From contig CAJUOK010000003.1 of assembly GCA_910588015.1 (NCBI GenBank), positions 48,193 to 112,192 of the forward strand: DNA of 64,000 nt. Reading direction: 5' to 3'. The notes beneath the pieces were generated by a model that ran no database searches, had not been told where the DNA came from, and saw nothing but the letters and a program-made list of their open reading frames with translations. The position numbers were made by a program, and so were the translations under genes. The stretch is from an uncultured Christensenellaceae bacterium (lineage in GTDB: Bacteria > Bacillota > Clostridia > Christensenellales > UBA3700). Below are positions 5,157-31,409 of this stretch, piece after piece. Numbering within the stretch: position 1 is the stretch's first letter; each line of letters begins with the position of its first letter.

Positions 5157-5393
5157 TTATTGCGCGGAGTTTTCGTCTGAATCTTCCTGTTCTTTTTCGG
5201 TAGCCGCCGTGTTTCCGCTTGCTTTGCCGCCGTTCTTTTTGAGAATTCCCGCTACAGCGAGCGCTCCCAAAAATCCCGTGACAATCTCCTGTATTAAAGG
5301 CACGTTGAATTTCAGCGCTACGCTCTGCAATATTGCCATAACGGCGCTTATCAACGATACCCAAAATTCATAACTCTTGAGTTTGGCTTTCAT
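5157..5393 (-). CDS. Holin, SPP1/XhlB-like (78 aa from the ATG at 5393; the track ORF starts earlier at 5432).
   Basis: MKAKLKSYEFWVSLISAVMAILQSVALKF...GALAVAGILKKNGG plus a charged C-tail. AGGAGG RBS 5 nt upstream of the ATG at 5391-5393. Two predicted TM segments. Confidence 0.5.
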   Translation of the reverse strand: MKAKLKSYEFWVSLISAVMAILQSVALKFNVPLIQEIVTGFLGALAVAGILKKNGGKASGNTAATEKEQEDSDENSAQ

Positions 5394-5665
5394 ACGACCT
5401 CCTTTGCCGCGCAATTGACTTTGTCTTGACATAGACTTTCTTCTCTCGCCGAATTTTCCATATACTTGCGAACTGTTCCGTTGACTTCGGCGACTTCTTC
5501 GTCGAGGTCTTTTAAATATCCGAGGTCTTGCGAAAGCGACGTTATCGTTTCTTGATACTTTTTTTCTCTCGTTCTGCTGTCTTTAAGCTCATAGATAAGC
5601 AACACGCAAAACAAAAGCGTCCAGATTCCGTCGCTTATCGCAAGCTCTATAATCTTATCCCACAT
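5390..5665 (-). CDS. bhlA: BhlA/UviB-family holin-like protein.
   Basis: MWDKIIELAISDGIWTLLFCVLLIYELKDSRTREKKYQETI matches the BhlA/UviB N-terminal TM plus coiled-coil pattern. Confidence 0.65.
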   Translation of the reverse strand: MWDKIIELAISDGIWTLLFCVLLIYELKDSRTREKKYQETITSLSQDLGYLKDLDEEVAEVNGTVRKYMENSAREESLCQDKVNCAAKEVV

Positions 5666-11081: not shown

Positions 11082-12137
11082 CAGTCGTTCCTCGCGTTCT
11101 CGTGATTAAGAATGGAGCGGAGCATTTCGTATGCGGCTAACCGTTTAGCTTCCTTTTTCGAGCTTGCTTCATCATAATAGCAATCTTCATATTCTTCAAT
11201 ACTACATTCGCAAGTCCATACGGGATTACCATCGTCATCGTGGTCTTCTTGGAACTCATAAATAGGAAAAGAGAAATACCCCTTTTGTGCAAGCTCCTGA
11301 AGCTGACTCACTGCCTTCTCGAGAGTGGGTTCATCAATTTCATCTTCCATCGTCCGAAGCAAACCTTGCTCGTCCAAGTAATCATACGCAAGCTCTGCCG
11401 CAGCCATTCTTGCCAGGCTCTTGGAATACCCAAAGCCAACAAACGGCGCACCATTATCTATGCGTAATTCACAAACGATATCCCCTTCGCCTTGCTCCAT
11501 ACGCCTTCTAGTTCCAACTTGTATAGAGCGCATATTGCAGTGATATTCATACCTTGAATTATAGAATTTATAAAACGGCAACTCTCCTACACGCTTCTGC
11601 TGCCACTGCTGAATAATGGAAACATAATCCTGGTCTGTGCCGAAGCCATTTTCCAAGTAACAATCAATGTGGAGCATCATTTCTACCGCATCTTGCATTG
11701 AATCCATATCCCAATCACTGTCAAGGGCAACTGCGCCGAGTATGGCTTCAAACAAGTCCTCTTTTACATTCGTTTTGGACATTATTTTTTCTGTCCCCCT
11801 TGCCCATTATCAAATAATCTGTAAAACCCATCTCATCAATGCGTTCTGCCAACATCTTACTTTCCACAAGGTGCTTCTTGAACTCCGTGAGCTTCCCCTC
11901 ATTGTGTTCACACTCGTACTCTTTGCCATCGTTGATTTCGCCGTAATACTCCGTCAAAACCTTAACGATTACCAAGTCGAGAACCTTATCGCCTATAAAC
12001 TCCAACACTTCATTGTTTTCGCCATCGTGCGTTTCTTGCGTATAACTTTTCCGCGTAAACGCTTGCTGCAACAACAATCTGTTCTTGAACTCGTACCCGA
12101 TTTGTGATTCAATTTCATCGTACTGTTCATCCTTCAT
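11081..12137 (-). pseudogene. rnc-like: RNase III homolog (catalytic domain plus two dsRBDs) split into two overlapping ORFs (11748..12137 and 11081..11782) by a frameshift at a T6/A6 homopolymer (11785-11790).
   Basis: N-ORF: IGYEFKNRLLLQQAFTRKSY...NEVLEFIGDKVLDLVIV is the RNase III signature, ending ...GKGDRKNNVQ. C-ORF: KEDLFEAILGAVALD is the second catalytic motif, followed by two dsRBD motifs (GFGYSKSLARMAAAELAYDYL and EASSKKEAKRLAAYEMLRSI). Removing one A from the A6 run joins the frames with the expected motif spacing. Confidence 0.6.
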
Positions 12138-12399
12138 AATAAAAATACCTCCTGTGTTTTTTCACAGAGGGCATAGAAAGAGCCTGACGAAATATAGACT
12201 ACGCCCTTGTAGCCTCGCCAGGCATCCACTCGATAAATGGTGTTATATAAATCACTCGTCCTTGATTCCAGTCACTTGCATAACAGGTCACAAATCCAAT
12301 ATGCTTTACATCCAACTATTTATGTCGCAATGCCTTCTCTGTACTTTCATTATATCAAACTCGACATAATCCGTCAAGGGGTATGTGCCATATTTCTCA

Positions 12400-12448
12400 A
12401 AATGTAAAAAAGTAAACGTCAAAGGAGTCGGCATTTCTGTCGACCCCT
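12400..12448 (-). terminator. Putative terminator after gene 12470..12949 (minus: AAGGGGTCG-loop-CGACTCCTT followed by a T-rich tract).
   Basis: Imperfect stem around the SalI site, followed by TGACGTTTACTTTTTTAC on the minus strand. Confidence 0.3.
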
Positions 12449-12469
12449 TCTTCATCTTTATGTATGACA

Positions 12470-12949
12470 TTAAAAGTATTCGATGCTGTCCAAGAACTCC
12501 TTAACGTTCGGCATTTCTAAAACCTCAAAGATAGTTTTAGAAAAACTTCCTTTCCTGTTTGCCATCAACTGAACGCTGACAGACACTTGGTTTTGGTTGA
12601 GTTTGTTGCGAGGGAAGTCATACCGTTCTTCGTACATATCACTGTATGCGCCACCATAATAATGCACCGATAACGCTGTACCCTTTCCGCGGGTAATAGG
12701 TTTGAAATCGCCTTTTATATGCAAATCGCAATCTCCTGCAAATTCCTCCATAGCTTCCTTTGCGGTCAACTCGGCATTTTCAAATTCTATGTCGATATAA
12801 ATTATTCCACCTTTTACTACCCGCTTATCCGACTTAAACTCTAGCAGATGCACTCCACAACCCGTAGGCTGAAGAGTAAGGTAAAAATCTTCGGGCAACG
12901 CAAACGAGATGTTTGATGCCACCAATTTACCATTTTTTACTCTTACCAT
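12470..12949 (-). CDS. Hypothetical protein (159 aa).
   Basis: ORF in track. Confidence 0.4.
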   Translation of the reverse strand: MVRVKNGKLVASNISFALPEDFYLTLQPTGCGVHLLEFKSDKRVVKGGIIYIDIEFENAELTAKEAMEEFAGDCDLHIKGDFKPITRGKGTALSVHYYGGAYSDMYEERYDFPRNKLNQNQVSVSVQLMANRKGSFSKTIFEVLEMPNVKEFLDSIEYF

Positions 12950-13094
12950 TTGTGATACTCCATTTTCGATAAAAACAGTCAGGGTTCGATATTCTTTCTC
13001 TTTCTGAAACTATCGCATTTTGATATAATTATTACAATCAGTATCTTCTCCCGCCGTCATTACTCTTTGGCGGCTTTTTTGCTGTTATCGAACG

Positions 13095-13337
13095 CTACAC
13101 AACTTCTGTGACAGTGAGTTGGAACACCTGCCCGTTTTCCATCCTCATCAACACACCCTTTGTGTTCTTCGCAAAAGTGCCGCAAAAATAGTCATCCAGC
13201 AACGGATAAATCTGCATTGCTAAATCAAACCCGTTGATTTTAGTACCTTGCATCGCTGTCTCAAACTGCTCTTTGTCTTCTTCGGTGTGAATGTAAGGTT
13301 TTCCTTCCATAACCTTTAACTCCTTAATTTTATTCAC
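13095..13337 (-). CDS. Hypothetical small protein (80 aa), divergent from the HTH regulator.
   Basis: ORF in track. Confidence 0.35.
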   Translation of the reverse strand: MNKIKELKVMEGKPYIHTEEDKEQFETAMQGTKINGFDLAMQIYPLLDDYFCGTFAKNTKGVLMRMENGQVFQLTVTEVV

Positions 13338-13360
13338 TTTTTTGCGCGCTTCAAGTGTAC

Positions 13361-13408
13361 TTCAATTATACTCTCCCATCGGCGTAACACGCAACTGAAA
13401 ATTGCGCA
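13361..13408. promoter_or_regulatory. Nested inverted repeats: a 9-bp perfect IR (CTCTCCCAT ... ATGGGAGAG) enclosing a CGCAA-N9-TTGCG IR. Candidate operator in the divergent promoter region.
   Basis: Read directly; located 38 nt upstream of the HTH regulator start. Confidence 0.4.
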
Positions 13409-13445
13409 AATGGGAGAGAATAAAATGTAGAAAAAGGACTAGTTT

Positions 13446-13889
13446 ATGGATAATTTGTCGAAACTCTCTGAAATGCTCGATTCGCTAATGTTCGAGCGCG
13501 AATTAAACCTTACGCAACTTGCCAAAGAAATAGGTATCGAAAAAGCAACCTTGAGCCGTTACCTTCACGCTTTAATGACGCCTTCCGTTGAAAATCTCGT
13601 GAAGTTAGCGGATTATTTTCAATGCACTACTGATTACCTATTGGGGAGAGAAAATGAAAACTATCCCTCTGCTTTCAAGCCGTGTCCACCGTTTTCAGAA
13701 CAGTTACTTGTATTGAAAAAACACTTTAACTGCCCTTGGTGGAATTTCTACAAAACCGCGCACATTTCAAGTTCTCGCTTTTATGAGTGGAAGAACGGCA
13801 AACGCACACCAACCCTAGATTGCATAATTTTTCTAGCAGATGGTTTCGGCTGCACTGTGGATTTCATCATTGGAAGAACGAAAATGTAA
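13446..13889 (+). CDS. Transcriptional regulator with two tandem XRE-type HTH domains.
   Basis: LTQLAKEIGIEKATLSRYLHA...VENLVKLADYFQCTTDYLLG, and a second HTH (ISSSRFYEWKNGKRTPTLDCIIFLADGFGCTVDFIIG). It is the only plus-strand gene inside the minus-strand island. Confidence 0.6.
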   Translation: MDNLSKLSEMLDSLMFERELNLTQLAKEIGIEKATLSRYLHALMTPSVENLVKLADYFQCTTDYLLGRENENYPSAFKPCPPFSEQLLVLKKHFNCPWWNFYKTAHISSSRFYEWKNGKRTPTLDCIIFLADGFGCTVDFIIGRTKM

Positions 13890-13901
13890 CTATAGATTTC
13901 T

Positions 13902-13950
13902 AGCCGTGATAAGGGGTGCTTAATCCTCTTACCACGGCTTTTCTTTCTAA
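13902..13950 (+). terminator. Rho-independent terminator after the HTH gene (AGCCGTG ... CACGGCT with a nested stem, then TTTTCTTTCT).
   Basis: Read directly. Confidence 0.45.
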
Positions 13951-14112
13951 TTCCCTTTCCACTCCACCAGATAAATCTGTATGCAGGCTGACATATAGGG
14001 CGGATGTTCCCTGTGGTTTCTTGGGCGTGGATATTTGCACTTACCACGCAGCTCCGGTGCCTTTGGAAAGGGTTATATACTCGCCGTGCAAAGCGAATAT
14101 AGCAAATTTTAC

Positions 14113-14283
14113 TTATCCATCACCTTCATTGACATTATCTTTTTTTTCGATTTCTTTATCAATCGCTTCATCGGCTTTCTTTCTGTTCATTTCCATAAAA
14201 ACTGACACAAGCAGGTCAACAAACGCTTCTTCCGAATTTGGATTATGAAACCGAAAATTAAATTGCTGTTTTTCCTTTTTCAT
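14113..14283 (-). CDS. Small ORF (56 aa), translationally coupled (ATGA) to the macrodomain gene stop.
   Basis: ATG at comp. 14281-14283 overlaps the TGA of the upstream gene. Below the 60-aa track cut-off. Product MKKEKQQFNFRFHNPNSEEAFVDLL... Confidence 0.25.
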   Translation of the reverse strand: MKKEKQQFNFRFHNPNSEEAFVDLLVSVFMEMNRKKADEAIDKEIEKKDNVNEGDG

Positions 14284-14762
14284 AATTTCCAAATTTCAAC
14301 CTGCCACTCATCTTCGGCAAACTCTTCTTCGATTATTCTCTGTACTTTTATCCAATCTCCGCCCGCAAGTCCACATCCAATATGGTCTGGAAATCCAATC
14401 TTAAACCCCTTGCCCCCAAACTTGCCGTGCGCTGAATTATAATCGTTGATTTCCGTTTTCAGCTCAATTAAGCATTTTCGGAAAGCATCGTAATCGGTAT
14501 GAATCACACCCCTGGGTCTATAATCAAACTGCGAATATAGATTAATAATGAAACGGAATTCTTGTTGAATATAAACTACATCAATCTTCCCGAGCCGATT
14601 CCCCTTGGAAGCAAACGAAGTCATAAAAACATCGTAAACCTGTGGATATTTATTTCGTATAGCTTTTGCGATGCCAGCGTTCATCACCCCTTTGCAGTTT
14701 ACCTGGTGGCATATTACATTGCAGTCGCTTGCAAGTAAATCTCCCCTTTTATACGAAACCAC
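14280..14762 (-). CDS. Macrodomain protein of the TARG1/OARD1/DarG type (ADP-ribosyl hydrolase-like), stand-alone.
   Basis: GDLLASDCNVICHQVNCKGVMNAGIAKAIRNKYPQV and IGFPDHIGCGLAGGDW align with TARG1 [27 protein letters not shown]...PRIGCGLDRL. The likely true start is a GTG at 14760-14762, 6 nt after an AAGGAGG RBS; the track ORF extends to 14828. Confidence 0.75.
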   Translation of the reverse strand: MVSYKRGDLLASDCNVICHQVNCKGVMNAGIAKAIRNKYPQVYDVFMTSFASKGNRLGKIDVVYIQQEFRFIINLYSQFDYRPRGVIHTDYDAFRKCLIELKTEINDYNSAHGKFGGKGFKIGFPDHIGCGLAGGDWIKVQRIIEEEFAEDEWQVEIWKL

Positions 14763-14763
14763 T

Positions 14764-15189
14764 TCAATCCTCCTTGGATTCCCACTCTTCTTTATAATAC
14801 CGAATATAGTCCGCCACAAGACGCGCATTAGTTGGCAATGCTGCCCTACACACCTTTTTAAATAGTTCTACGGCTCTTGCATCAAAACAAAAGCCCAGTA
14901 AGCCGTCCAGAAGCCTTGAGACTTCTTCCTCGTCCACTTTATCGCTTCTGCCCAAACGAAGGCACACGTTGGCAACTGTCGGCTCATAAAGCGACACAGC
15001 GGTTTCAACTAACCTTGACCTATTTTCTAGCAGCACTTTGATTTTATTAAGCGCCGTATAAAGACCATAGTTGAAATCGCTATCGGTTGCAGATGTGGAC
15101 TTTTCTCTTTCGATTTCTTGACTCAAATTTTCAAGTACACCAACTACTATTTTTATATTTTCATCTTGCATATTAACCTTGCCGATCAC
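14764..15189 (-). CDS. Hypothetical helical protein (141 aa), coupled to its neighbours.
   Basis: ORF in track; ATGA overlap with the upstream gene; stop is 1 nt before the macrodomain GTG. Confidence 0.4.
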   Translation of the reverse strand: MIGKVNMQDENIKIVVGVLENLSQEIEREKSTSATDSDFNYGLYTALNKIKVLLENRSRLVETAVSLYEPTVANVCLRLGRSDKVDEEEVSRLLDGLLGFCFDARAVELFKKVCRAALPTNARLVADYIRYYKEEWESKED

Positions 15190-15701
15190 CCGTGCAACAA
15201 CTTGTACACTGCATCGAATAAAACACCAAATGTCTCGTTCGTTAACGGGAGCGAAAGCACACGCTCCCCAATTTTGAATTCCACTTCAGATTTCGACTTA
15301 ACCTTTGCTCCTTCTCCAAACTGATGGTTTATCTCATCCAAGTAATCCACAAATGCTTCAAGTTCCTTTTGCTTTTCAATAGTTAGTCCTCGCATATTTT
15401 CTCCTCCATATTTCTTTTTTAATTCTTCAAATACAACTTCGCCGGGGATTAATCGCCCCGCTTTGACCTCATCCATTCCCTTCATTAATTTTTTGTATAA
15501 ATCCACCCGTTCCAAGACTTCCTCTGGCGGAAGTTTAATTGCGAACGGAATACTGCGTGTGTACACAACTTGATAAAGATAAACGGCTATTCCTGTATCA
15601 AGCGATAAGCCAAGCTCCGTGAATATTGTTTTCGCAAGCTCAAGCATATGCTTGTCAATTGTAAAAGTAGCCTTCGTTTTTTCGTTATCCTTCATTCTCA
15701 A
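15186..15701 (-). CDS. Protein with an N-terminal RelB/DinJ-type antitoxin domain and a C-terminal extension (171 aa).
   Basis: ATFTIDKHMLELAKTIFTELGLSLDTGIAVYLYQVVYTRSIPFAIKLP matches the RelB/DinJ ribbon-helix-helix consensus. No cognate toxin gene is adjacent. Confidence 0.5.
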   Translation of the reverse strand: MRMKDNEKTKATFTIDKHMLELAKTIFTELGLSLDTGIAVYLYQVVYTRSIPFAIKLPPEEVLERVDLYKKLMKGMDEVKAGRLIPGEVVFEELKKKYGGENMRGLTIEKQKELEAFVDYLDEINHQFGEGAKVKSKSEVEFKIGERVLSLPLTNETFGVLFDAVYKLLHG

Positions 15702-15987
15702 CCTCTCCTATAATCTCGAATTCCCCCTCGGAATATGTTACGGGACTGAATACAGATTTTCCAAACCCACTATTCCCCATTCGATGTAAATCAACTTCCT
15801 CGGCAACGAAAACTGGCACATATTGTGGGGTATTCTGCTCATACGGAAGAATGATTGCTGAAATCGAAACATAACCTTCAACGACTTTATAACCATCCGC
15901 ACTAACGGGTTCAGACGAAGTTGTGAAGGCATCTCGTGCCTTTACCCTTGCCCGATACTTTTTGATTGTCTTTCCATTAATCGTCAC
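15685..15987 (-). CDS. Hypothetical protein (100 aa).
   Basis: ORF in track; overlaps the downstream gene by 17 nt. Confidence 0.35.
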   Translation of the reverse strand: MTINGKTIKKYRARVKARDAFTTSSEPVSADGYKVVEGYVSISAIILPYEQNTPQYVPVFVAEEVDLHRMGNSGFGKSVFSPVTYSEGEFEIIGEVENEG

Positions 15988-15999
15988 TGCCGTACTCTC

Positions 16000-16665
16000 C
16001 TAATCGGTAATATAAATAAAGCATTTATCTCTGTTCCGCTCGTAAACGAGGAAAGGAATCTCCGCTTTAGCCAACATCTCGTTATTCACTTTTTCATAAT
16101 TGTAGGTTTGAAACCCAGGGTATAACTTTATCAATCTATCCCTTGCCTCTTTTGCGCAAAAGAAATCGGTTGTGTCATCTGCATCAAACAGCTCTTTGAA
16201 CTTGACAAGCAAGCACGGAATTTCAATGACCTCCATAAATCTCTGCTCTTCGTCAACACTGATACGCTCTTCCTTTTCGCCATCTACATAACAAATCTTT
16301 CTCCCATTCATCCAACGAAAATGAACCTTGTTAGATTTTATGCTCTCATCAGAGAACCCAAGAAACTTGTACATTTTTTCTCTGTTGATTTGGCTGATTT
16401 TTACTACCTTTTCCGAAAAAACATCCCTGGGGATTTTCGCTATGCTCTCATCCTTCAAATGAAACCGCATGATAGAATACGGGTTAAATTCGTCCCAATT
16501 ATGACCGTCTCCAAGCAATCGCTCATCATCGGAAACATTAAAATATTTAACCTTTTCCAATTCGGCTGCGGACAGCTTTTCAAATTTATAAATGTGGATA
16601 TCAACACTCATTTTTAATCGTCCTCCACGACAAGCACGTTGATAATTCCGCTGTAATAGGTACAA
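16000..16665 (-). CDS. Hypothetical protein (221 aa; the start may be the internal Met at about 16611).
   Basis: ORF in track. Confidence 0.4.
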   Translation of the reverse strand: MYLLQRNYQRACRGGRLKMSVDIHIYKFEKLSAAELEKVKYFNVSDDERLLGDGHNWDEFNPYSIMRFHLKDESIAKIPRDVFSEKVVKISQINREKMYKFLGFSDESIKSNKVHFRWMNGRKICYVDGEKEERISVDEEQRFMEVIEIPCLLVKFKELFDADDTTDFFCAKEARDRLIKLYPGFQTYNYEKVNNEMLAKAEIPFLVYERNRDKCFIYITD

Positions 16666-17435
16666 GCATCCAAAGCAACTAAACCTTCCTCGGTGTACGG
16701 CTCAAACGCCTTTTCCCAGTTCTTTCTGCTTTTGTTGGGGAACTCCTTATATTTCTGTAAAATGTGCGCCCATCCCCAGGAGCAATGCCAATGACCGCAA
16801 ACTATTGTCTTCCCAGGTTCTTTAATATTATGCTTGTGTGCAAGTTCCATCCCGTTAAACCAACGAGCCTCTTCCCACTGTTCTTCGCTTGCGCTTCGCC
16901 AGTCTGCGTTATACTTGTACTTCGTAGCCTTGGGATTATTAGGATACACGCTTTTTTCAACCATGCAAGGAATCCATCCGTGGACGAAAATATAATGCTC
17001 GGTTTCGAAGTAGTTTTTCATCGCCGGGATGATTGTTTTGATAAACGGCGTGTTCACCATTTTAGTTACAAATTTCAATGGGTTATGCATAACATCATAG
17101 TCCGACATTTTCACGAGCTGTTCGCAAGTGTCAATTGTGCCGTTGCTGTAATGATGCGAATCACGGAACCGAAAGGTATAAAATCCTATATTAATAATCA
17201 AATCAAGAATTAAGTCCTCGTGGTTGCCTTTAATAAGGATAACCTTGTCCATTTCCATCAGTTCCAATATGTACTTCTGAAGCTGAACCGCCTCGGGGCC
17301 TCTATCCATTAAATCCCCACAAACAATCAATTTATGGTTTTCATCTTTGGGGTTGAACCCTTTTTCATTCAGTGCGTTAATCAATTCATAATAATAGCCG
17401 TGAACATCGGCAACAACAAAATACTTCATTCTCAT
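16614..17435 (-). CDS. Calcineurin-like metallophosphoesterase, PPP-family Ser/Thr phosphatase (lambda-PPase-like).
   Basis: Motifs ADVHG, GDLMDRG and GNHE at canonical spacing. Confidence 0.7.
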   Translation of the reverse strand: MRMKYFVVADVHGYYYELINALNEKGFNPKDENHKLIVCGDLMDRGPEAVQLQKYILELMEMDKVILIKGNHEDLILDLIINIGFYTFRFRDSHHYSNGTIDTCEQLVKMSDYDVMHNPLKFVTKMVNTPFIKTIIPAMKNYFETEHYIFVHGWIPCMVEKSVYPNNPKATKYKYNADWRSASEEQWEEARWFNGMELAHKHNIKEPGKTIVCGHWHCSWGWAHILQKYKEFPNKSRKNWEKAFEPYTEEGLVALDACTYYSGIINVLVVEDD

Positions 17436-17439
17436 CCTT

Positions 17440-17898
17440 TCAATTCTTTATATCTTTAAAATTTCCATAGGTACATTTACTTGCACATTCTTTGCAATAA
17501 TAAGTAATATACCCCACAGACTCCTTCGTTGCTCTCTTTCCGCAAATGATGCAAGTTCGCCGTGAAAGCTCAACGTACCTTTTCTGCCAAGCGTAATATG
17601 CATTAGAAACCGATTCTGGGCAACCATTGTCATACCACCGCAAGGTTCCATATTTTTCTTTTATTTGAGTGATGCGATACACATCCAACCCGCCGCCTTT
17701 TACAAGGATTTCTTTGAGTTCTCTACACATCTGCAATCCAAAGGCAATACACCAACCATCTGGCAAATCATCTAGCTCGGTGTATGAATAATCGTAATCA
17801 TCCGGTACATTCCCCGTCCAACGATTCCGTGGCAATAGAAAAGGAAATTCCGCTATGAGAGCCTTATTCTCTTCAATTGCCTCCTTACCGCGCATCAC
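17440..17898 (-). CDS. Cys-rich hypothetical protein (152 aa).
   Basis: ORF in track; C-terminal CxxC...C...C cluster. Confidence 0.4.
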   Translation of the reverse strand: MMRGKEAIEENKALIAEFPFLLPRNRWTGNVPDDYDYSYTELDDLPDGWCIAFGLQMCRELKEILVKGGGLDVYRITQIKEKYGTLRWYDNGCPESVSNAYYAWQKRYVELSRRTCIICGKRATKESVGYITYYCKECASKCTYGNFKDIKN

Positions 17899-19015
17899 TT
17901 CTTACCTCAAAAATATATTTCAAAACAGTGTCCATCGAAGGCTTGTACTCTCTCATTGCTGACACTGCTTCCTCCGCTGTACTATAACCCTGAACCAAAA
18001 TAAAAGCCAGTGTTTTCAACTCTCTTTTATCACCGCCCAACCTAGCCACAATTTGATTATGGTTCGCATCGAATATCTGTACCCAGTCATCGGTTTCCAC
18101 TTTTCGATACCTTATCAGCCAAACATCTGCCGATGCACATAGCAAGAACCTATCGTTATCACGGAGAATAATCTGCGTAAGCAAAGCCGAATGAAACTTC
18201 AAATCATAAGTCTCGCCATTTGAGTCTGTGTATTGCAGTTCAAACCCATCTAAATACCCAAAGGTCTCTTTAAGAAACTGAACTTCTCGAACCAACTCTT
18301 CATTCCGTAAAGAGAACGCATTTTTCTCGTATTGGTACTCATTTGGCAAATCCTCGATAAACTTCGTAAGGTTTTTTTCGCTGCCATACAGCGTTTCCGT
18401 GGTATCTGCATTCAGCTTCGTTTTAATGGTAATTGCGCCATATCTAGGGGGCAATCCATTATCGAATGGATTCTGCATCCACTCATCCAAATCAAAGCCC
18501 CATTTCTCCTCACAAAACTCGTCCCGATATGTTTCTCGAAGCCACGCCATCTTGTCTTTCATTTGGCATATTATGGGGGCAATGTCAAAATCCGAGTAAA
18601 TCTGTGCGCCTTTTAGAATATCTAAAATTTCATTACCCCAAACCCAGGTATCATATTTATCATCGTCATCCAGTTCGCTCCCTACTTTGCTATACGAAAT
18701 CATCAAGCGATCATCTTTTAAGAAATGATTTGTATGCATATTGGGAACGTATTTCAACGCCTTGATTCCCTTGGAAGAAAGATAACCGAACCGTTTATAA
18801 TACCGCCCGTAAACAAACAACTCGGGCAGTTCGGAAGCATACAGCTTCGTTCTCCCATAGTTGGCGGCAAGCAGCGTTCCATCATTGCTTCCCACATACC
18901 GATAATTTCCATCGACACGTTTGAAATCATGTAAAAAATATAAATGACCTCTTACTCTCTTTTTCATTTTTCTACCCATCTCCGAATACATCCTCAAAAA
19001 ACCGATTCCAGTCAA
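17885..19015 (-). CDS. Hypothetical protein (376 aa).
   Basis: ORF in track. Confidence 0.4.
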   Translation of the reverse strand: MTGIGFLRMYSEMGRKMKKRVRGHLYFLHDFKRVDGNYRYVGSNDGTLLAANYGRTKLYASELPELFVYGRYYKRFGYLSSKGIKALKYVPNMHTNHFLKDDRLMISYSKVGSELDDDDKYDTWVWGNEILDILKGAQIYSDFDIAPIICQMKDKMAWLRETYRDEFCEEKWGFDLDEWMQNPFDNGLPPRYGAITIKTKLNADTTETLYGSEKNLTKFIEDLPNEYQYEKNAFSLRNEELVREVQFLKETFGYLDGFELQYTDSNGETYDLKFHSALLTQIILRDNDRFLLCASADVWLIRYRKVETDDWVQIFDANHNQIVARLGGDKRELKTLAFILVQGYSTAEEAVSAMREYKPSMDTVLKYIFEVRSDAR

Positions 19016-19724
19016 GTGCCGATAAATTATTGTATCGCGCTTCTGCTTCCTGTTCCGTTTTATAACTTGTATCTATTACACCTAGCAAGTTCTGTATCGT
19101 TTTTCCTTTAATTTTTAGAACGCCGGGGAAACCCCAAATCATATCCCCCAACGCAACCCACCTTTTATGCGGAATAAGCTCATCCTTATACCTCGGGTTC
19201 GTTGCCGTGACCCAATACACAATATAAAACTGCTTACCTAATTTGACGAGGGCAACTCTACCTACAGCCTTGCTTATACGACATTTATAATAAAAACCAT
19301 ACGAGTTTTCGTATGTATAGCTAATCCTCTCGAATTCGAGGGGTTTTTCCTTTATCAATTTAGTTGGACGAGCAAATCTGGTAACACACTGCCCCGCGTG
19401 ATAGATGATTTTTCTCTCACCTGCAACAAAATGTTCAAAGGTGTTCCGCTCCTCTTCTAACTGTTCCTCGGCAGCATTATCAAGCACGGCTCGAAAATCA
19501 TCCAACGTGCCAAAATATAACTTTGTAAATGAAGTACAGCTCGGGGCTGCGTAATCATCTAGCTCGAAGGCATAGAGTTGCTTTTTAGAGTCCATAATTA
19601 TAATCCTTGCTAAATTATAGCATAATAAAAGTAGCGAAAATCGACACCAATGAAAATGTAATTGAAAATCGCCAAAATGTAAAAAAGTATGCCAAATCAA
19701 CCGACAGTTTATGCCCTTGACCAT
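18972..19724 (-). CDS. Hypothetical protein; the likely start is the internal Met (MDSKKQ, about 19598), preceded by an AAGGA RBS and a TATAAT.
   Basis: ORF in track; a TATAAT -10 is found in the reverse complement of 19625-19640. Confidence 0.4.
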   Translation of the reverse strand: MVKGINCRLIWHTFLHFGDFQLHFHWCRFSLLLLCYNLARIIIMDSKKQLYAFELDDYAAPSCTSFTKLYFGTLDDFRAVLDNAAEEQLEEERNTFEHFVAGERKIIYHAGQCVTRFARPTKLIKEKPLEFERISYTYENSYGFYYKCRISKAVGRVALVKLGKQFYIVYWVTATNPRYKDELIPHKRWVALGDMIWGFPGVLKIKGKTIQNLLGVIDTSYKTEQEAEARYNNLSALDWNRFFEDVFGDG

Positions 19725-19760
19725 CGGTGTATTGCTTTCAATATGTTGTTAGCCGTAGAA

Positions 19761-20126
19761 TTATCGTGAGTTCTTGCGCTTGGAAAGGAAATGATACTCC
19801 CTCATCGCCCTCTTCACCGAACTCGCACATTCAATCATAACCCGACGTTCGTATGGAGAGCAGTCGTGAAATAAGGCATCATATTCCTTAATATCCACAA
19901 CGAGGTAGTCGTTCAAACTCTCCGCCAAAAGCATATCCGTAGTTACCCCCAAGGCATTAGCAATAAGTATGAGCGTGTCAAGGCTCGGACTTTTAATCCC
20001 GCTCTCTATGTAACTGACATAAGTCGGAGTTTTGTCTATAATCTCCGACAACTTTGCTTGCGACAACCCCTTTTTCTTGCGAATTGTCTGAATTCTTTTA
20101 CCCAAAAGAATATAATTGAGTGCCAT
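19761..20126 (-). CDS. cI-like repressor (XRE-family HTH, 121 aa).
   Basis: KKKGLSQAKLSEIIDKTPTYVSYIESGIKSPSLDTLILIANALGVTTDMLL; divergent from a cro-like gene across an operator-bearing spacer. Confidence 0.65.
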   Translation of the reverse strand: MALNYILLGKRIQTIRKKKGLSQAKLSEIIDKTPTYVSYIESGIKSPSLDTLILIANALGVTTDMLLAESLNDYLVVDIKEYDALFHDCSPYERRVMIECASSVKRAMREYHFLSKRKNSR

Positions 20127-20180
20127 TTTGAATTACCTCCAAAAATTTTGTTATCTCAATTATAGTCCGCAGTAGATATT

Positions 20181-20252
20181 ATCGTCTATGGTAGATTTCA
20201 AATATCGCCTATAGATGATAAAATTGTAATGATAATATGCTCCATAGGCGAA
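20181..20252. promoter_or_regulatory. Three operator-like copies of ATCGYCTATRG: 20181-20196 forward, 20204-20219 forward, 20237-20252 inverted. Divergent promoters include TTCAAA-N17-TAAAAT for cro and a TATAAT for cI.
   Basis: Read directly in the 130-bp cI-cro spacer. Confidence 0.45.
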
Positions 20253-20265
20253 GGAGGTGCTTGTA

Positions 20266-20628
20266 ATGGATGAGATTATAGATTCAAACCAACTCAAAGA
20301 AATTGGGCAGCGCATTCGTTCTGCACGACTCGCCGCGGGACTCACACAATCGGATTTAGCCTTCTCCGCAGACATTCGAACTTCGCACATCAGTGATATT
20401 GAACTTGGCAAGAAGCAATTAAGCATCCTTACCTTTTGTAAAATTATAGAAGCACTTCGAGTTTCGGCGGACGAAATCCTCCGCCCCAACACTCCAGAGG
20501 TCAACCGTATTTATCAAAACGAATTCTCGCAGTTGCTTCAAGACTGCACCCCCACGGAAATTGAGTCGCTTCTCAAAATCGTAAAAGAGATAAAAACCTC
20601 TCTGCATAACAAAACTGATAATGACTAG
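20266..20628 (+). CDS. Cro-like / XRE-family HTH regulator (start at the ATG after AAGGAGG; the track begins at GTG 20257).
   Basis: LKEIGQRIRSARLAAGLTQSDLAFSADIRTSHISDIELGKKQLSILTFCKIIEAL. Confidence 0.6.
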   Translation: MDEIIDSNQLKEIGQRIRSARLAAGLTQSDLAFSADIRTSHISDIELGKKQLSILTFCKIIEALRVSADEILRPNTPEVNRIYQNEFSQLLQDCTPTEIESLLKIVKEIKTSLHNKTDND

Positions 20629-20654
20629 GAAGGTTCGCTGTCCTAGTTTTTTTC
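20625..20654 (+). terminator. Rho-independent terminator after cro (CTAGGA-loop-TCCTAG followed by TTTTTTT).
   Basis: Read directly. Confidence 0.55.
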
Positions 20655-20911
20655 TGGGTTCTATTTATTTTAACATCTGCGCGAATTTTCCCGTGAATAC
20701 ATTTGTCAAGTTTTCCCCGTCAAATTCCATCTCTTTTTTGACATTTGTATAATTCTTCATTGAGTGGACGTCTATTCCACTCTTTTTCTTTTTGAAAACT
20801 CAATCTTTTTTGCTTTTTATAAACTAGTGGTTTATGTACTTGACCGCTGGTTTATTCTTTTTTTCCGCGGGTGCTTTTATAATGGTCATAGTTTTAACTT
20901 AAGAGGTAACT

Positions 20912-21565
20912 ATGGCAAACGAAATAAAAAGCACAACCCCTGACAAAACCGATAACCTTGATGCAACCGAGATTGAACTAGTCAATAAATTTAACGAAAT
21001 AGCAAGAACCCCACAATTATTTTTTTCAGCAGATACCTCGTCCGAACGGGCAAAGAAAATCGCACAACACAAAGTGTGGTTGAGTAGCATCCGTCACGAG
21101 TTCCCTAGCCCCGCCACTCATTTTAAGGTCGGTGTTTATATTCGTTATTTCAACCAAACCAAGTACGATGATTACTTGGAAACCCATAAGGCTATGTTTA
21201 TGGACGCCATCTCGCTCTGCCCCAACTGGGAGTTCGTTGGCTACTACATTGATGAAGGATCAACTGCACCCAATATGGAAACCGCTGCCGAATGGTCTCG
21301 GCTTCTCAACGATGCCACGGAAGGAAAGGTTGATTTAATCATCACCCAAAAAGTCTCCAATGTATCAAAGAAAATTCACGAAGTTACCCTTTGCGCAAGA
21401 TTGCTTGCTGCAATGGAACACCCCGTTGGTATCTACTTCCTTTCCGAAGATATTTATACCTTGGCTTCGTATTATCAACACGATTTGAGAGATACATTCT
21501 TTTTACCCAATAACGACACGGAGGCGTTGCCCGAAGGAACAGATAAAAAAGGCTTACTGAAATGA
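20912..21565 (+). CDS. Resolvase-catalytic-domain paralog lacking the catalytic serine; predicted inactive.
   Basis: KVGVYIRYFNQTKYDDY...CPNWEFVGYYIDEGS...GKVDLIITQKVSNVSK aligns with the next gene (RVGIYVRVSTDDVRQ...HPNWTLIKIYPDEGISG...GKLDLIITKSVSRFARN). The motif Ser is replaced by Phe and the SRFAR motif is lost. ATGA overlap with the recombinase start. Confidence 0.55.
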   Translation: MANEIKSTTPDKTDNLDATEIELVNKFNEIARTPQLFFSADTSSERAKKIAQHKVWLSSIRHEFPSPATHFKVGVYIRYFNQTKYDDYLETHKAMFMDAISLCPNWEFVGYYIDEGSTAPNMETAAEWSRLLNDATEGKVDLIITQKVSNVSKKIHEVTLCARLLAAMEHPVGIYFLSEDIYTLASYYQHDLRDTFFLPNNDTEALPEGTDKKGLLK

Positions 21566-23469
21566 TAGATACCCAAAGAAAAGAAGAACGAGAACGGAAA
21601 AAAGATAAAACCCGTAAACGAATGCACGTCGAGATTGACCCCGAGAATTATGAGTACACCCCGGCGAAAAAAGCTATCGATTATTACGATAATAACACAC
21701 CCCAGCGTGTAGGAATTTACGTCCGTGTTTCAACCGATGATGTCAGACAAACCACCTCTTTTGAATTGCAAAAACAATATTATGAGGAATTCGTCCAGAA
21801 GCATCCAAATTGGACGCTCATTAAAATATACCCCGATGAAGGTATAAGCGGTACTTCCCTCCGCCATCGTGATCAGTTCAATCAAATGATTTCAGACAGT
21901 CGAGCGGGAAAACTCGACCTTATAATCACAAAGAGCGTTTCCCGTTTTGCAAGAAATGTCGTTGACTGTATTGGATTGCCCCGCGACCTTGCGGAGCTGA
22001 AACCACCTGTCGGCGTTTTCTTTGAGTCCGAAGCAATCTTCTCGCTCAATGATGATTCACAAATGGCATTGTCTTTCGTTGCTACTATGGCGGAAGAAGA
22101 ATCGCATACCCGTAGCCGCAGTATGGAAACCTCTCTCCGTATGCGATTAGACCACGGTATTCCCCTCACGCCCAAATTGCTCGGTTATATGCACGATGAA
22201 GATGGCAACCTCATAATCAACCCCGAGGAAGCCCCCACAGTCAAGCTCGCTTTTTATATGTATCTTTACGGATATTCCACGCAGCAAATTGCGGACACTT
22301 TCAATGAGCTTCAGCGCAAATCATACCTTGGAAATGTCAAATGGACATCAAGCGGAATTGTGCAGATTTTAAGAAACGAACGGCACTGCGGTGATGTAAT
22401 CACAAGAAAAACTTTCACACCAAACTACCGCGACCACAAGTCAGTGCGAAACCGCGGAGAACGTCCTCAAAGCACATACCGCAAGCATCACGAAGGAATT
22501 GTATCAAGAGATGATTTCATTGCTGTGCAACGGATGTTGGATAACGCCAAGTACCGCAATAAATCATTTCTGCCAGAACTGCGTGTCATTGAAAGCGGCA
22601 TATTGAAAGGCTTTGTGGTAATCAATCCTAGATGGGCAGGGTTCAAAGAGCAAGATTATTATGAAGCAGCGCAAAGCGTGTACAAGCCTAGCAACGAACA
22701 GTCCGATACACTTGAACTTCCCCCGGCAGAAATACCTATCCCCATTGAAGCAGGAGACTTTGATTTGCGAGGCTTTGAAATAACCCGTTCAGAGTTCTTT
22801 GATAGCAACCAACGCCCCAGCATTACATTTGCGGAAAAGAAGATAAAATTCAGCACAGACTGCGTTCGCAAATTCGGTAACAACAACTATGTCGAACTTC
22901 TCATCAACCCTATTGAAAAGAAATTTGCCGTAAGAACCACAACCAAGGAAAATCGTCAAGCGGTTATCTGCTCACAGTTAGATGCAAGAAAATACCTACC
23001 AAAGACAATATCCGCTTCCGCTTTCAGCGATACCATCTTTTCAATTTTCGGTTGGAACCCCGAATGCAAATACCGCATCATCGGTTCACTTTACGAAGAA
23101 GGCAACCAAATCGCCTATATCTTCGACACCGACAATTCCGAGATTTTTTTTAAGTCTTATGTGTTAACAAGCCAGGAAGCAAACGAAGCTGGCGGTAAAA
23201 CAGGTATCCAACCTTATACTCCTTCTGGGAAACGCATCCGTGCAATACCGCAAGAATGGACGAACTCGTTCGGTAAACCCTACTACCAACACGAACAGAC
23301 TCTCGCTGCGTTAGCCGCACAAAGTGAAGCCGATTGGCAAATCCGAATGGAAGGACAGCTCGTTGAGACGGGCAGAAAAATAAATGTGACTGGCTTTGAA
23401 GATTTGAAGCAGTACATAAACCAAGAATTAAATGGCACACTGCCACAGGAGGTAAACCCTAATGAGTGA
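21562..23469 (+). CDS. Large serine recombinase (635 aa) with an extra C-terminal domain (recombinase D).
   Basis: VRVSTDD catalytic motif, KSVSRFARN, recombinase domain; C-terminal about 230 aa homologous to the downstream ORF. Confidence 0.8.
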   Translation: MIDTQRKEERERKKDKTRKRMHVEIDPENYEYTPAKKAIDYYDNNTPQRVGIYVRVSTDDVRQTTSFELQKQYYEEFVQKHPNWTLIKIYPDEGISGTSLRHRDQFNQMISDSRAGKLDLIITKSVSRFARNVVDCIGLPRDLAELKPPVGVFFESEAIFSLNDDSQMALSFVATMAEEESHTRSRSMETSLRMRLDHGIPLTPKLLGYMHDEDGNLIINPEEAPTVKLAFYMYLYGYSTQQIADTFNELQRKSYLGNVKWTSSGIVQILRNERHCGDVITRKTFTPNYRDHKSVRNRGERPQSTYRKHHEGIVSRDDFIAVQRMLDNAKYRNKSFLPELRVIESGILKGFVVINPRWAGFKEQDYYEAAQSVYKPSNEQSDTLELPPAEIPIPIEAGDFDLRGFEITRSEFFDSNQRPSITFAEKKIKFSTDCVRKFGNNNYVELLINPIEKKFAVRTTTKENRQAVICSQLDARKYLPKTISASAFSDTIFSIFGWNPECKYRIIGSLYEEGNQIAYIFDTDNSEIFFKSYVLTSQEANEAGGKTGIQPYTPSGKRIRAIPQEWTNSFGKPYYQHEQTLAALAAQSEADWQIRMEGQLVETGRKINVTGFEDLKQYINQELNGTLPQEVNPNE

Positions 23470-28114: not shown

Positions 28115-28141
28115 TTCTACCTCCTATTTTTGGTATGACAC

Positions 28142-28170
28142 ACATTACCAAAATCACGCCATATAGTCCA
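28142..28170 (-). promoter_or_regulatory. Promoter of recombinase C: CGCTGGACT-N17-TAATGT.
   Basis: Same architecture as five other promoters in the window. Confidence 0.45.
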
Positions 28171-28238
28171 GCGAATTGCCCCAAACAAGCGAAAAGAGCA
28201 GACAGCATTTTGCCATCTGCCCTTCGCTATCAAACGCC

Positions 28239-31384: not shown

Positions 31385-31409
31385 ATATCCTCCTTTTTTA
31401 GTATGACAC

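What the first reader, a model, noticed from the sequence alone, without database searches (positions are those of the whole stretch)
14113..15987. Translationally coupled five-gene cluster containing a solo TARG1/DarG-type macrodomain and a RelB/DinJ antitoxin-domain protein, with no toxins
The macrodomain aligns with TARG1 and DarG over both the N-terminal GDL...C...G.G(I)A block and the C-terminal IGCGL block, but lacks the DarT-binding C-terminal domain of DarG. It is coupled to its neighbours by overlaps: GTG 6 nt after an AAGGAGG inside the upstream stop region, and ATGA overlaps on both sides. Two antitoxin-type domains with no cognate toxins inside a prophage suggest decoys. One would act as an anti-DarT or general ADP-ribosylation eraser, the other as a RelE/YafQ-family toxin neutraliser, countering host TA-based defences. 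An alternative is that one of the unknown partners (100 aa, 141 aa, 56 aa) is a novel toxin.
Basis: partly seen in the sequence, partly recalled or inferred. Interest (0 to 1): 0.7.

Follow-up and report, generated by a model that had tools for sequence, protein, structure and literature searches.

The report
Phage ADP-ribose eraser plus orphan antitoxin domain
The tail of a gut-Clostridia prophage's early operon encodes a stand-alone ADP-ribose-removing enzyme of the family that phages T4 and PhiKZ use to undo DarT DNA modification, plus an optional toxin-less RelB-like domain; this is a new example of a recently described counter-defence, not a new kind of system.

Summary
The five minus-strand ORFs, their tight packing, the solo macrodomain, the RelB/DinJ-like domain and the lack of any recognisable toxin are all real. 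They are not a discrete unit. They are the last five genes of a ten-gene, tightly packed early operon that follows the Cro-like gene of a serine-recombinase prophage.

The macrodomain best matches PHROG 335, as do T4 Tk.4 and PhiKZ gp104, the two proteins named AdfM (anti-DarT2). The DarG/TARG1 catalytic lysine is Gln78 here. This is not a dead site: Gln is near-invariant in the subfamily, T4 Tk.4 and BT1257 also carry it, and in SCO6735 the equivalent Gln85 is essential for thymidine-ADP-ribose hydrolysis.

The RelB-like module is a true homolog, though below curated cut-offs. Its nearest phage relative sits in a complete relBE pair. Here it has no toxin, is absent from one sister operon variant, and is always fused in frame to the next gene.

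The 135/141-aa helical protein is the only neighbour that recurs beside a macrodomain elsewhere. I found no toxin fold in any partner.

Verdict: the anti-ADP-ribosylation reading is well supported but already known. The RelE-decoy reading is possible but untested.

The parts
14280..14762 (-). Stand-alone Gln-type ALC1-like macrodomain (160 aa, GTG start), an AdfM / PHROG 335 family ADP-ribosyl glycohydrolase. Key residues are N22, Q78 and the motifs HQVNC and IGCGLAGGDW.
   Evidence: Family and structure-database matches: PHROG 335 7e-43; NCBIfam DarG 2.2e-15 over 2-146/338; PADLOC DarG 4.4e-18. PDB by profile: BT1257 3e-17, Mtb DarG 9.5e-16, Poa1p 2.4e-12, SCO6735 1.1e-10, TARG1 4e-9. Pairwise: T4 Tk.4 E 1e-11, PhiKZ gp104 E 2e-7. 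Conservation among the nearest representatives: Q78 in 137/139, N22 in 139/139.
14764..15171 (-). All-helical 135-aa protein (141 aa if the GTG at 15189 is used). It is lineage-restricted and is the only neighbour that recurs beside a macrodomain in another phage-like lineage. Function unknown; candidate macrodomain partner.
   Evidence: Its family contains only relatives of 64% identity or more. AF2 model: five helices, pLDDT 72.8, pTM 0.43. No Foldseek PDB match. A remote homolog overlaps the 3' end of the macrodomain gene in L067/L091/L102 (tblastn 6e-7; hhalign 95.4% probability, E 1.8e-8).
14113..14283 (-). 56-aa ORF that overlaps the macrodomain stop by ATGA. It is conserved after the macrodomain in all three operon variants. 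Function unknown.
   Evidence: (57-65% identity to the V2/V3 counterparts). No family hit.
15396..15695 (-). R module: the N-terminal 100 aa of the 169-aa ORF. It is a RelB/DinJ/ParD-type ribbon-helix-helix antitoxin homolog without a cognate toxin and without its own stop codon.
   Evidence: NCBIfam RelB_ParD 3.6e-10 (covering 1-82 of 83 model positions) and RelB_DinJ 4.4e-7; all 5 family members hit, best 1.6e-13. Pfam RelB 0.011. phrog_2737 5.9e-12. DinJ structures are the best, non-significant, PDB hits. The nearest phage homolog is paired with a RelE toxin. The module is absent from variant V3.
15186..15395 (-). C module: the C-terminal 69 aa of the 169-aa ORF. It is preceded by its own Shine-Dalgarno sequence and ATG (GGAGGAGAAAATATG). 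In other phages it is fused to gene A instead. Function unknown.
   Evidence: No family hit. The AF2 model of this part is poor, pLDDT about 40.
15685..15987 (-). Gene A (100 aa), a beta-rich small protein of a gut-phage family. It usually stands alone at about 97 aa, ending ...IIGEVE.
16000..19595 (-). Upstream part of the same tightly packed early operon: 207 aa, 364 aa, 152 aa (Cys-rich C-terminus), 273-aa calcineurin-like metallophosphoesterase (16614-17435) and 203 aa.
   Evidence: Gene gaps of -14 to +12 nt. Metallophos 2.4e-16. NinI-like phosphatase PHROG 2.3e-29. The same order appears in L001-L010.
19761..23469 (.). Lysogeny switch and integrase of the prophage: Cro-like HTH (19761-20126, -), CI-like HTH (20257-20628, +), a 217-aa ORF and a 635-aa large serine recombinase (21562-23469, +).

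Best explanation
The region is the distal end of the early lytic operon, immediately downstream of the Cro-like gene, of a temperate phage that integrates by a serine recombinase into gut Clostridia.

Macrodomain. The 160-aa macrodomain is an AdfM-type orphan antitoxin-like enzyme: a stand-alone ALC1-like-class ADP-ribosyl glycohydrolase of the Gln-type subfamily (SCO6735 / BT1257 / T4 Tk.4). I infer that it is made early after infection or induction. I infer that it removes ADP-ribose placed on thymidine in single-stranded phage DNA by host DarT2-type transferases, and possibly other ADP-ribose adducts, so that replication can proceed. It acts on the product of the toxin, so it needs neither a DarT-binding domain nor a cognate toxin. 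Gln78 and Asn22 would position the distal ribose and a catalytic water, as proposed for SCO6735.

Helical protein. The translationally coupled 135/141-aa helical protein is a probable accessory partner of unknown role.

RelB/DinJ-like module. It is an optional, recently acquired toxin-less antitoxin domain fused to the next small gene. It most likely either sequesters RelE/ParE-family toxins of the host or of rival phages, or acts as a ribbon-helix-helix DNA-binding and dimerising domain.

What is shown: homology, motif conservation, operon position, optionality, absence of recognisable toxins. What is inferred: the substrate, the anti-DarT role, and every function proposed for the partners.
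For: Family membership. The window macrodomain, T4 Tk.4 and PhiKZ gp104 all have PHROG 335 as best hit (7e-43, 1.3e-65 and 8.2e-43). A T4 Tk.4 knockout sensitises T4 to DarTG2 (bioRxiv 10.1101/2025.11.20.689424). PhiKZ gp104 removes DarT2 ADP-ribose from DNA (PMC13309987).

Active site. Q78 aligns with DarG K80 and PhiKZ K78. T4 Tk.4 has the same NLY(S/T)QF motif. SCO6735 Gln85 occupies that position, Q85A is inactive, and the enzyme cleaves dT-ADPr DNA and protects against DarT (PMC9411070). Q78 is kept in 137/139 and N22 in 139/139 of the nearest representative clusters.

Association with DNA ADP-ribose reversal. One relative is a macro+NADAR+RNase H fusion (P0262). NADAR genes lie within about 1.5 kb of the macrodomain gene in 5 of 80 viral loci and 2 of 80 genome loci. 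NADAR is the anti-DarT1 enzyme AdfN (PMC11825919).

Solo enzyme family. There are 7988 representative clusters, mostly 150-165 aa, and 1332 phage records.

Early-operon position. The operon lies 165 nt downstream of the Cro-like gene, in a ten-gene packed operon conserved in L001-L010.

R module. Homology; a complete relBE pair in the nearest phage homolog; optional and fused.

Helical partner. It recurs beside a macrodomain in a second lineage.
Against: - No biochemical or genetic test was possible.
- I could not check whether hosts of this prophage carry DarT2.
- Identity to the validated AdfM proteins is low (24-25%). The Gln-type subfamily also includes chromosomal proteins of unknown role (BT1257), and the class includes the yeast ADP-ribose-1''-phosphate phosphatase Poa1p, so substrate specificity is not fixed by homology.
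- Pfam Macro and NCBIfam DarG scores are below curated cut-offs.
- For the R module there is no evidence of toxin binding. Its in-frame fusion to unrelated domains, and its absence in variant V3, fit a dispensable or regulatory role equally well.
- The macrodomain/helical-protein association was seen in only two lineages.
Confidence: 0.6

Rival explanations
1. Nucleotide or RNA-repair housekeeping. The macrodomain acts as a Poa1p-like ADP-ribose-1''-phosphate phosphatase, or as a scavenger of free ADP-ribose derivatives. It would work with the upstream calcineurin-like phosphoesterase, for example downstream of RNA 2'-phosphotransferase-type repair or in clearing NADase products, rather than on modified DNA.
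For: Yeast Poa1p is a significant PDB hit (7.6e-7 with the single sequence, 2.4e-12 with the profile). Phage homologs are annotated 'Poa1p-like', 'Appr-1-p processing' or 'phosphatase'. A Metallophos gene lies in the same operon, and one lies within 4 kb of the macrodomain gene in 9 of 80 viral loci and in the L067-type element.
Against: No RNA ligase, kinase or Tpt1 was found in the operon. At the Gln78 position Poa1p has Ser, whereas the window shares Gln with T4 Tk.4 and SCO6735. The 'phosphatase' labels are carried-over annotation, not tests. T4 Tk.4, which carries that same label, behaves as an anti-DarTG2 factor.
Confidence: 0.12
2. Writer-eraser pair within the phage. The macrodomain is the antidote or regulator for an ADP-ribosyltransferase encoded by the same element, which would be one of the unannotated ORFs. 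This would be analogous to DarTG, with the phage itself doing the ADP-ribosylating.
For: In the L067/L091/L102 element a DUF3990 gene (Pfam 9.9e-42; listed in Pfam's ART clan, PMC7955679) sits divergently upstream of the Metallophos...macro-helical operon. Several window ORFs have no annotation at all.
Against: No ART-clan or DarT hit for any ORF of the window's element in Pfam or PADLOC. The 141-aa partner is all-helical, which is not an ART fold. The large solo family and the T4 and PhiKZ precedents do not require a phage-borne writer.
Confidence: 0.08
3. A cryptic toxin-antitoxin or addiction module. The RelB-like domain neutralises a novel toxin among A, C, the 141-aa protein or the 56-aa protein. 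The cluster would then serve prophage maintenance or abortive infection rather than counter-defence.
For: The R module matches a full-length antitoxin model (1-82 of 83). It is translationally coupled to unknown small ORFs. Its nearest phage homolog is part of a real relBE pair.
Against: R is absent in variant V3, yet A, C, the 134-aa protein and the 59-aa ORF are all present there. A occurs alone in other phages. No toxin family hit and no toxin-like fold. The genes lie in the lytic early operon, not the lysogeny module.
Confidence: 0.07
4. The RelB-like module is only a ribbon-helix-helix DNA-binding and dimerisation domain that regulates the early operon or tethers its fused partner to DNA. 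It would have no role against toxins.
For: The best-supported part of the homology is the RHH core (DinJ alignments over positions 12-63). The module is always the N-terminal domain of a fusion, R-C or R-ASCH. This resembles the modular build of DNA-binding regulators.
Against: The match extends over the whole antitoxin model, including the C-terminal toxin-binding half. No operator-like repeats were seen in the region.
Confidence: 0.3

Closest known systems
AdfM (anti-DarT factor macro): T4 Tk.4 (bioRxiv 10.1101/2025.11.20.689424) and PhiKZ gp104 (PMC13309987)
   Same: All are phage-encoded, stand-alone macrodomains of about 155-162 aa in the DarG-like class. All have the same best PHROG family, 335. 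None has a DarT-binding domain or an adjacent toxin. The conserved Asn is present in all. The window and T4 Tk.4 share the Gln-type motif NLY(S/T)QF.
   Different: Identity is only 24-25%. PhiKZ gp104 is Lys-type, like DarG. Here the host is a temperate Clostridia prophage rather than a virulent T-even or jumbo phage. Here the gene is coupled to a helical partner gene. No activity data exist for this protein.
SCO6735 (Streptomyces coelicolor) and BT1257 (Bacteroides thetaiotaomicron), Gln-type ALC1-like macrodomains (PDB 5E3B, 2FG1)
   Same: All are solo macrodomains. Gln replaces the TARG1/DarG catalytic Lys. BT1257 is the best PDB hit (3e-17 by profile) and SCO6735 scores 1.1e-10. SCO6735 hydrolyses thymidine-linked ADP-ribose on DNA and protects against DarT (PMC9411070).
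   Different: Those two are chromosomal bacterial genes, not phage early genes. The longer Lys-rich mobile loop of SCO6735 was not examined here.
DarG antitoxin of DarTG2
   Same: The macrodomain is homologous to the DarG N-terminal domain (NCBIfam 2.2e-15, PADLOC 4.4e-18).
   Different: No C-terminal DarT-binding domain, no adjacent DarT gene, Lys80 replaced by Gln, and a score far below the equivalog cut-off (56.8 against 250 bits).
AdfN (T4 30.3), an orphan NADAR antitoxin-like enzyme (PMC11825919)
   Same: The same logic applies: a phage carries the enzymatic half of a DarTG system, without the toxin, to erase the modification. NADAR and Gln-type macrodomains are fused or adjacent in some relatives.
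   Different: A different fold and a different base specificity (guanine rather than thymine).
RelB/DinJ-RelE type II toxin-antitoxin pairs, e.g. the pair in Acutalibacteraceae phage NatCom_991
   Same: The R module is homologous over the full antitoxin length. The NatCom_991 homolog scores above the RelB_DinJ cut-off.
   Different: There is no RelE/ParE/YafQ gene here. R has no stop codon of its own and is fused to an unrelated 69-aa domain, or to an ASCH domain in variant V2. Scores are below curated cut-offs.

Membership tests
ALC1-like macrodomain class (TARG1 / DarG / SCO6735 / BT1257 / Poa1p) | Whole-domain sequence similarity to solved members | tested here: met
   By profile: BT1257 3e-17, Mtb DarG 9.5e-16, Poa1p 2.4e-12, Taq DarG 1.2e-11, SCO6735 1.1e-10, TARG1 4e-9. 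The single sequence gives the same set of hits.
ALC1-like macrodomain class (TARG1 / DarG / SCO6735 / BT1257 / Poa1p) | Conserved ADP-ribose-binding Asn and Gly-rich loops | tested here: met
   N22 in HQVNC is kept in 139/139 relatives. GVMxxGIA and IGCGL(A/G)GGDW are near-invariant.
TARG1 / DarG Lys-type enzymes | Catalytic lysine (TARG1 K84, DarG K80, PhiKZ AdfM K78) | tested here: not met
   Gln78 occupies this position in the HMMER, BLASTP and MAFFT alignments.
Gln-type subfamily (SCO6735 / BT1257 / T4 Tk.4) | Gln at the position of the catalytic Lys | tested here: met
   Q78 here. Q is present in 137/139 of the nearest representatives and in T4 Tk.4, BT1257, Geobacillus E3 gp183 and the SPbeta-like protein. 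SCO6735 Gln85 is equivalent to DarG K80 according to PMC9411070; I did not see the SCO6735 alignment residue by residue.
Gln-type subfamily (SCO6735 / BT1257 / T4 Tk.4) | Hydrolysis of thymidine-linked ADP-ribose on ssDNA | not testable with these tools
   Needs an enzyme assay.
AdfM (phage anti-DarT factor macro) | Phage-encoded stand-alone macrodomain in the same homology family as T4 Tk.4 and PhiKZ gp104 | tested here: met
   PHROG 335 is the best hit for all three. Pairwise E-values are 1e-11 and 2e-7. The prophage context is shown.
AdfM (phage anti-DarT factor macro) | Protects the phage against DarTG2 and neutralises DarT2 toxicity | not testable with these tools
   Needs a genetic or co-expression test.
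DarG antitoxin (DarTG2) | C-terminal DarT-binding domain | tested here: not met
   The protein is 160 aa and matches only positions 2-146 of the 338-position model. It scores 56.8 bits against a cut-off of 250.
DarG antitoxin (DarTG2) | Adjacent DarT (ADP-ribosyltransferase) gene | tested here: not met
   No DarT or ART-clan hit for any neighbouring or operon ORF.
RelB/DinJ(/ParD) type II antitoxin | Ribbon-helix-helix antitoxin domain that matches the family models | tested here: inconclusive
   The matches are significant but below curated cut-offs: RelB_ParD 3.6e-10 (39.9 bits against 60), RelB_DinJ 4.4e-7 (30 against 45.65), Pfam RelB 0.011 (16.1 against 22.4). DinJ structures are the best PDB hits, at E 0.09-0.66.
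RelB/DinJ(/ParD) type II antitoxin | Cognate RelE/ParE/YafQ toxin gene in the same operon | tested here: not met
   No toxin family hit for A, C, the 141-aa protein or the 56-aa protein. For contrast, the NatCom_991 homolog is followed by a RelE_StbE gene (30.2 bits against a cut-off of 27.9).
RelB/DinJ(/ParD) type II antitoxin | Small stand-alone protein of about 80-100 aa | tested here: not met
   The module has no stop codon of its own. It is fused in frame to the 69-aa C domain here and to an ASCH domain in variant V2.
RelB/DinJ(/ParD) type II antitoxin | Binds and neutralises a toxin; autoregulates its operon | not testable with these tools
   Needs co-expression, pull-down and EMSA.

The most novel reading that the evidence does not exclude
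The macrodomain and the translationally coupled 135/141-aa helical protein form a two-gene 'split DarG-like' counter-defence unit: an eraser enzyme plus a separate protein that binds or blocks the host ADP-ribosyltransferase. Separately, the RelB-like module is a mobile, stop-codon-less decoy-antitoxin cassette. It inserts at the ribosome-binding site and ATG of early phage genes and is expressed as an N-terminal fusion to neutralise RelE-family abortive-infection toxins of hosts or rival phages.
Probability: 0.1. Interest if true: 0.65.

Novelty: new member of a known kind. Interest (0 to 1): 0.33.

Why it matters
If the assignment holds, AdfM-type erasers of DNA ADP-ribosylation extend from virulent T-even and jumbo phages of Proteobacteria to abundant temperate phages of human and animal gut Clostridia. 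The macrodomain protein of this element was called on hundreds of metagenome contigs.

It also shows that the Gln-type active site, which a naive catalytic-residue check would score as dead, is the dominant form in phages.

The toxin-less RelB-like module and the recurring helical partner give two concrete, cheap experiments on possible new anti-toxin factors. As things stand, the central idea (a phage orphan antitoxin-like enzyme against DarT) has already been published.

Tried and rejected
- DNA match to known phages: megablast of window 10000-22000 against the phage collection found nothing.
- Relatives of the 141-aa protein: single-sequence pattern scans found none in IMG/VR. The family is narrow.
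- Close macrodomain relatives in species-representative genomes: none. The alignment-based scan worked.
- Relatives of the R module in IMG/VR: none.
- Structure of the 141-aa protein: a helical bundle of modest confidence. No Foldseek PDB match better than E 0.3, including no DarG C-terminal-domain hit.
- HMM built from the 141 family plus its L102-type relatives, run against all ORFs of 80+ macrodomain loci: it found only the three loci already known.
- Hidden ART or DarT in the element: Pfam and PADLOC on all larger ORFs gave nothing.
- RNA families: none.
- Repeats: nothing meaningful.
- Promoter and terminator scans: at background level for promoters.
- Regulation of the nearby phage RNase III by the macrodomain, as YmdB does in E. 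coli: considered and rejected. YmdB is a MacroD-type protein, the 'RNase III inhibitor' label on PDB 5m3i is carried-over annotation for Mtb DarG, and nothing links the two genes beyond proximity.
- An apparent 45% identity between A-C and R-C over 156 aa: rejected as a BLAST extension artefact. Only the C parts are truly similar.
Full report
**What is in the sequence**

On the minus strand of 14113-15987 there are five ORFs:
- A, 100 aa, 15685-15987, GTG start.
- R-C, 169 aa, 15186-15695.
- A helical protein, 141 aa from the GTG at 15189, or 135 aa from the ATG at 15171. Most homologs use the ATG.
- A macrodomain, 160 aa, 14280-14762.
- A 56-aa ORF, 14113-14283.

The macrodomain starts at a GTG six bases after AAGGAGG, and the upstream TGA stop lies in between. 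Relatives start at the same residue, so the 182-aa ATG alternative is unlikely. The macrodomain and 56-aa genes overlap by ATGA. A and R-C overlap by 11 nt. R-C and the helical gene overlap by GTGA only if the less likely start is used.

**Context**

The genes are not a free-standing cluster. The same proteins occur on hundreds of metagenome contigs. The ten contexts I read were identical in gene order: a 635-aa large serine recombinase, a divergent CI-like/Cro-like HTH pair, then ORFs of 207, 364, 151, 271 (Metallophos), 203, 100, 169, 141, 160 and 56 aa. After these come a convergent HTH gene, an RNase III gene, a 470-aa gene and then variable cargo.

In the window all ten genes from the 207-aa ORF to the 56-aa ORF have gaps of -14 to +12 nt, beginning 165 nt after the Cro-like gene. 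So this is the distal half of the early lytic operon of a temperate phage. The window is 99.95% identical to a MAG contig over 15.2 kb. Related proteins are labelled Clostridia bacterium. The macrodomain's closest species-level relatives are Eubacteriales, Christensenella and Clostridia MAGs. A second prophage, with three tandem serine recombinases, occupies 26.6-64 kb.

**The macrodomain: family**

Pfam Macro is below threshold (16.9 bits against 22), but other models are clear:
- PHROG 335, 7e-43.
- NCBIfam DarG, 2.2e-15 over model positions 2-146 of 338.
- PADLOC DarG, 4.4e-18.

A family profile hits only ALC1-like-class structures: BT1257 3e-17, Mtb DarG 9.5e-16, Poa1p 2.4e-12, Taq DarG 1.2e-11, SCO6735 1.1e-10, TARG1 4e-9. 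The family is very large and mostly made of solo proteins. There are 7988 representative clusters at E up to 1e-3, 1332 phage records and more than 534 IMG/VR contigs.

**The macrodomain: active site**

The catalytic lysine of DarG (K80), TARG1 (K84) and PhiKZ gp104 (K78) is Gln78 here. This is not decay. Gln is present in 137 of the 139 nearest representatives, Asn22 in all 139, and the HQVNC and IGCGL(A/G)GGDW motifs are near-invariant. BT1257, Geobacillus virus E3 gp183, an SPbeta-like phage protein and T4 Tk.4 share the Gln.

For SCO6735 the literature shows three things (PMC9411070). Gln85 sits at the lysine position. Q85A abolishes activity. The enzyme removes thymidine-linked ADP-ribose from DNA and protects against DarT.

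**The macrodomain: what is already known**

Two 2025-2026 papers independently named phage solo macrodomains AdfM:
- T4 Tk.4: its deletion sensitises T4 to DarTG2 (bioRxiv 10.1101/2025.11.20.689424).
- PhiKZ gp104: it removes DarT2 ADP-ribose from DNA (PMC13309987).

Both have PHROG 335 as best family, as does the window protein. Pairwise E-values to the window protein are 1e-11 for T4 and 2e-7 for PhiKZ. The concept of orphan antitoxin-like enzymes was established for NADAR/AdfN (PMC11825919).

Gene association points the same way. One relative is a macro+NADAR+RNase H fusion. NADAR genes lie within about 1.5 kb of the macrodomain gene in 5 of 80 viral loci and 2 of 80 genome loci.

I therefore file the protein as a new, Gln-type member of the AdfM kind. 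Its substrate is inferred, not shown.

**The RelB-like protein**

Residues 11-92 of the 169-aa ORF match the whole RelB_ParD antitoxin model (3.6e-10) and RelB_DinJ (4.4e-7). All five family members hit these models, but below curated cut-offs. DinJ structures are the best, non-significant, PDB hits.

The nearest phage homolog, in Acutalibacteraceae phage NatCom_991, scores above the RelB_DinJ cut-off. It is followed, with a 4-nt overlap, by a RelE/StbE toxin gene. So the family normally lives in complete relBE pairs, and the window copy is truly toxin-less.

The module (R) is also optional and fused. Three variants of the operon exist:
- W: A | R-C | 141.
- V2: A | R-ASCH | 130.
- V3: A-C | ASCH | 134, with no R at all.

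DNA comparison places R exactly between A and the ATG of C. It is flanked by two copies of the SD+ATG context and has no stop codon of its own. C keeps a strong internal SD+ATG. These facts fit a recent cassette acquisition. They do not show whether R binds a toxin, binds DNA, or both.

**The other partners**

- A belongs to a family of about 97-aa stand-alone genes in gut phages. These occur without any macrodomain nearby.
- C and the 56-aa ORF have no detectable relatives outside this phage group.
- The 135/141-aa protein is all-helical (pLDDT 73, pTM 0.43) and has no structural match.
- No ART or DarT gene was found anywhere in the element.

The one positive lead concerns the 141 family. 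It has a remote homolog (hhalign 95.4% probability, E 1.8e-8) that overlaps the 3' end of the macrodomain gene in a different phage-like operon of Roseburia and other Clostridia. That operon also carries a Metallophos gene upstream and a DUF3990 (ART-clan) gene divergently. The macrodomain and the helical protein thus recur together in two lineages, in opposite gene order. A wider HMM search over 80+ loci found no further cases.

**Mechanism and rivals**

The most likely account is this. The early-expressed macrodomain erases ADP-ribose from phage ssDNA modified by host DarT2-type transferases. It uses the SCO6735-type Gln/water mechanism and needs no toxin-binding domain because it acts on the product. 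I put about 0.85 on its being an active ADP-ribosyl hydrolase and about 0.55-0.6 on an anti-DarT2 role specifically.

Rivals for the macrodomain or cluster:
- A Poa1p-like phosphatase or ADP-ribose scavenging role together with the Metallophos enzyme (0.12).
- An antidote to a phage-borne transferase (0.08).
- A cryptic toxin-antitoxin module (0.07).

For the R module, a toxin decoy and a plain ribbon-helix-helix regulator or dimeriser are about equally plausible.

**Verdict**

The five-gene unit and the novel-toxin idea are not supported. This is a new member of a known kind, of modest interest.

Noticed in passing
window 15396-15695 (R module); L011 8001-8654; L015 1595-2445: The RelB-like module behaves like an in-frame cassette. 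It is absent in one operon variant, fused to the 69-aa C domain in the window, and fused to an ASCH domain in another variant. It is flanked by duplicated SD+ATG contexts (GGAGAGGTTGAGAATG ... GGAGGAGAAAATATG; the empty site reads GGAGAAGTAGAAAAAATG). In the R-less variant, A and C form one 167-aa ORF.
   Followed up: yes
window 11081-12137 (-): The phage RNase III gene (353 aa, with a dsRBD, intact in L001-L010) is split into two overlapping ORFs of 129 and 233 aa in the window. This corresponds to the single gap in the 15.2-kb alignment with L006. It is a frameshift, a pseudogene or a sequencing error.
   Followed up: partly
L067, L091, L102 (Roseburia intestinalis and other Clostridia contigs): A different phage-like operon carries a Metallophos gene, a Gln-type macrodomain and an overlapping remote homolog of the window's 141-aa protein. 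Divergently upstream lie a DUF3990 gene (Pfam ART clan) and an HTH protein. This may be a writer/eraser arrangement.
   Followed up: partly
P0262, P0192, P0205 (relatives); L119, L130, L132, L139, L148, L043, L099: Gln-type macrodomains occur fused to NADAR+RNase H and to YpsA/SLOG domains. Separate NADAR genes lie within about 1.5 kb of the macrodomain gene in several viral and genome loci. This suggests combined anti-DarT1/anti-DarT2 islands.
   Followed up: partly
window 26591-31411 (-) and 31700-64000: Three tandem large serine recombinase genes (507, 537 and 521 aa) sit at the end of a second prophage, whose structural and tail genes fill the rest of the window. This element lies directly next to the one studied.
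   Followed up: no
window left of about 9540; L001-L010 beyond position about 15200: Homology among otherwise near-identical prophages stops just after the 470-aa gene. The region beyond it is variable cargo: type I RM subunits, WYL, DNA methyltransferases, AAA_5, or portal/terminase modules, depending on the contig. This looks like a recombination or defence hot spot. The 470-aa protein has a weak PADLOC HEC-07 hit (3.7e-9).
   Followed up: no
window 3710-4735 (-), 5390-5665 (-), 25563-26483 (+): An SPFH/Band-7 protein with a C-terminal zinc ribbon, a BhlA-family holin and a DUF6551 protein. None of them is connected to the finding.
   Followed up: no
L025 2010-2852 (Geobacillus virus E3 gp184): The gene immediately upstream of that phage's Gln-type macrodomain is annotated 'toxin-antitoxin-like protein' and contains an ORF6N domain (8e-18).
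   Followed up: no
window 13446-13889 (+): The 147-aa HTH protein convergent with the operon end resembles CapH-type regulators in PADLOC (2e-9).
   Followed up: no
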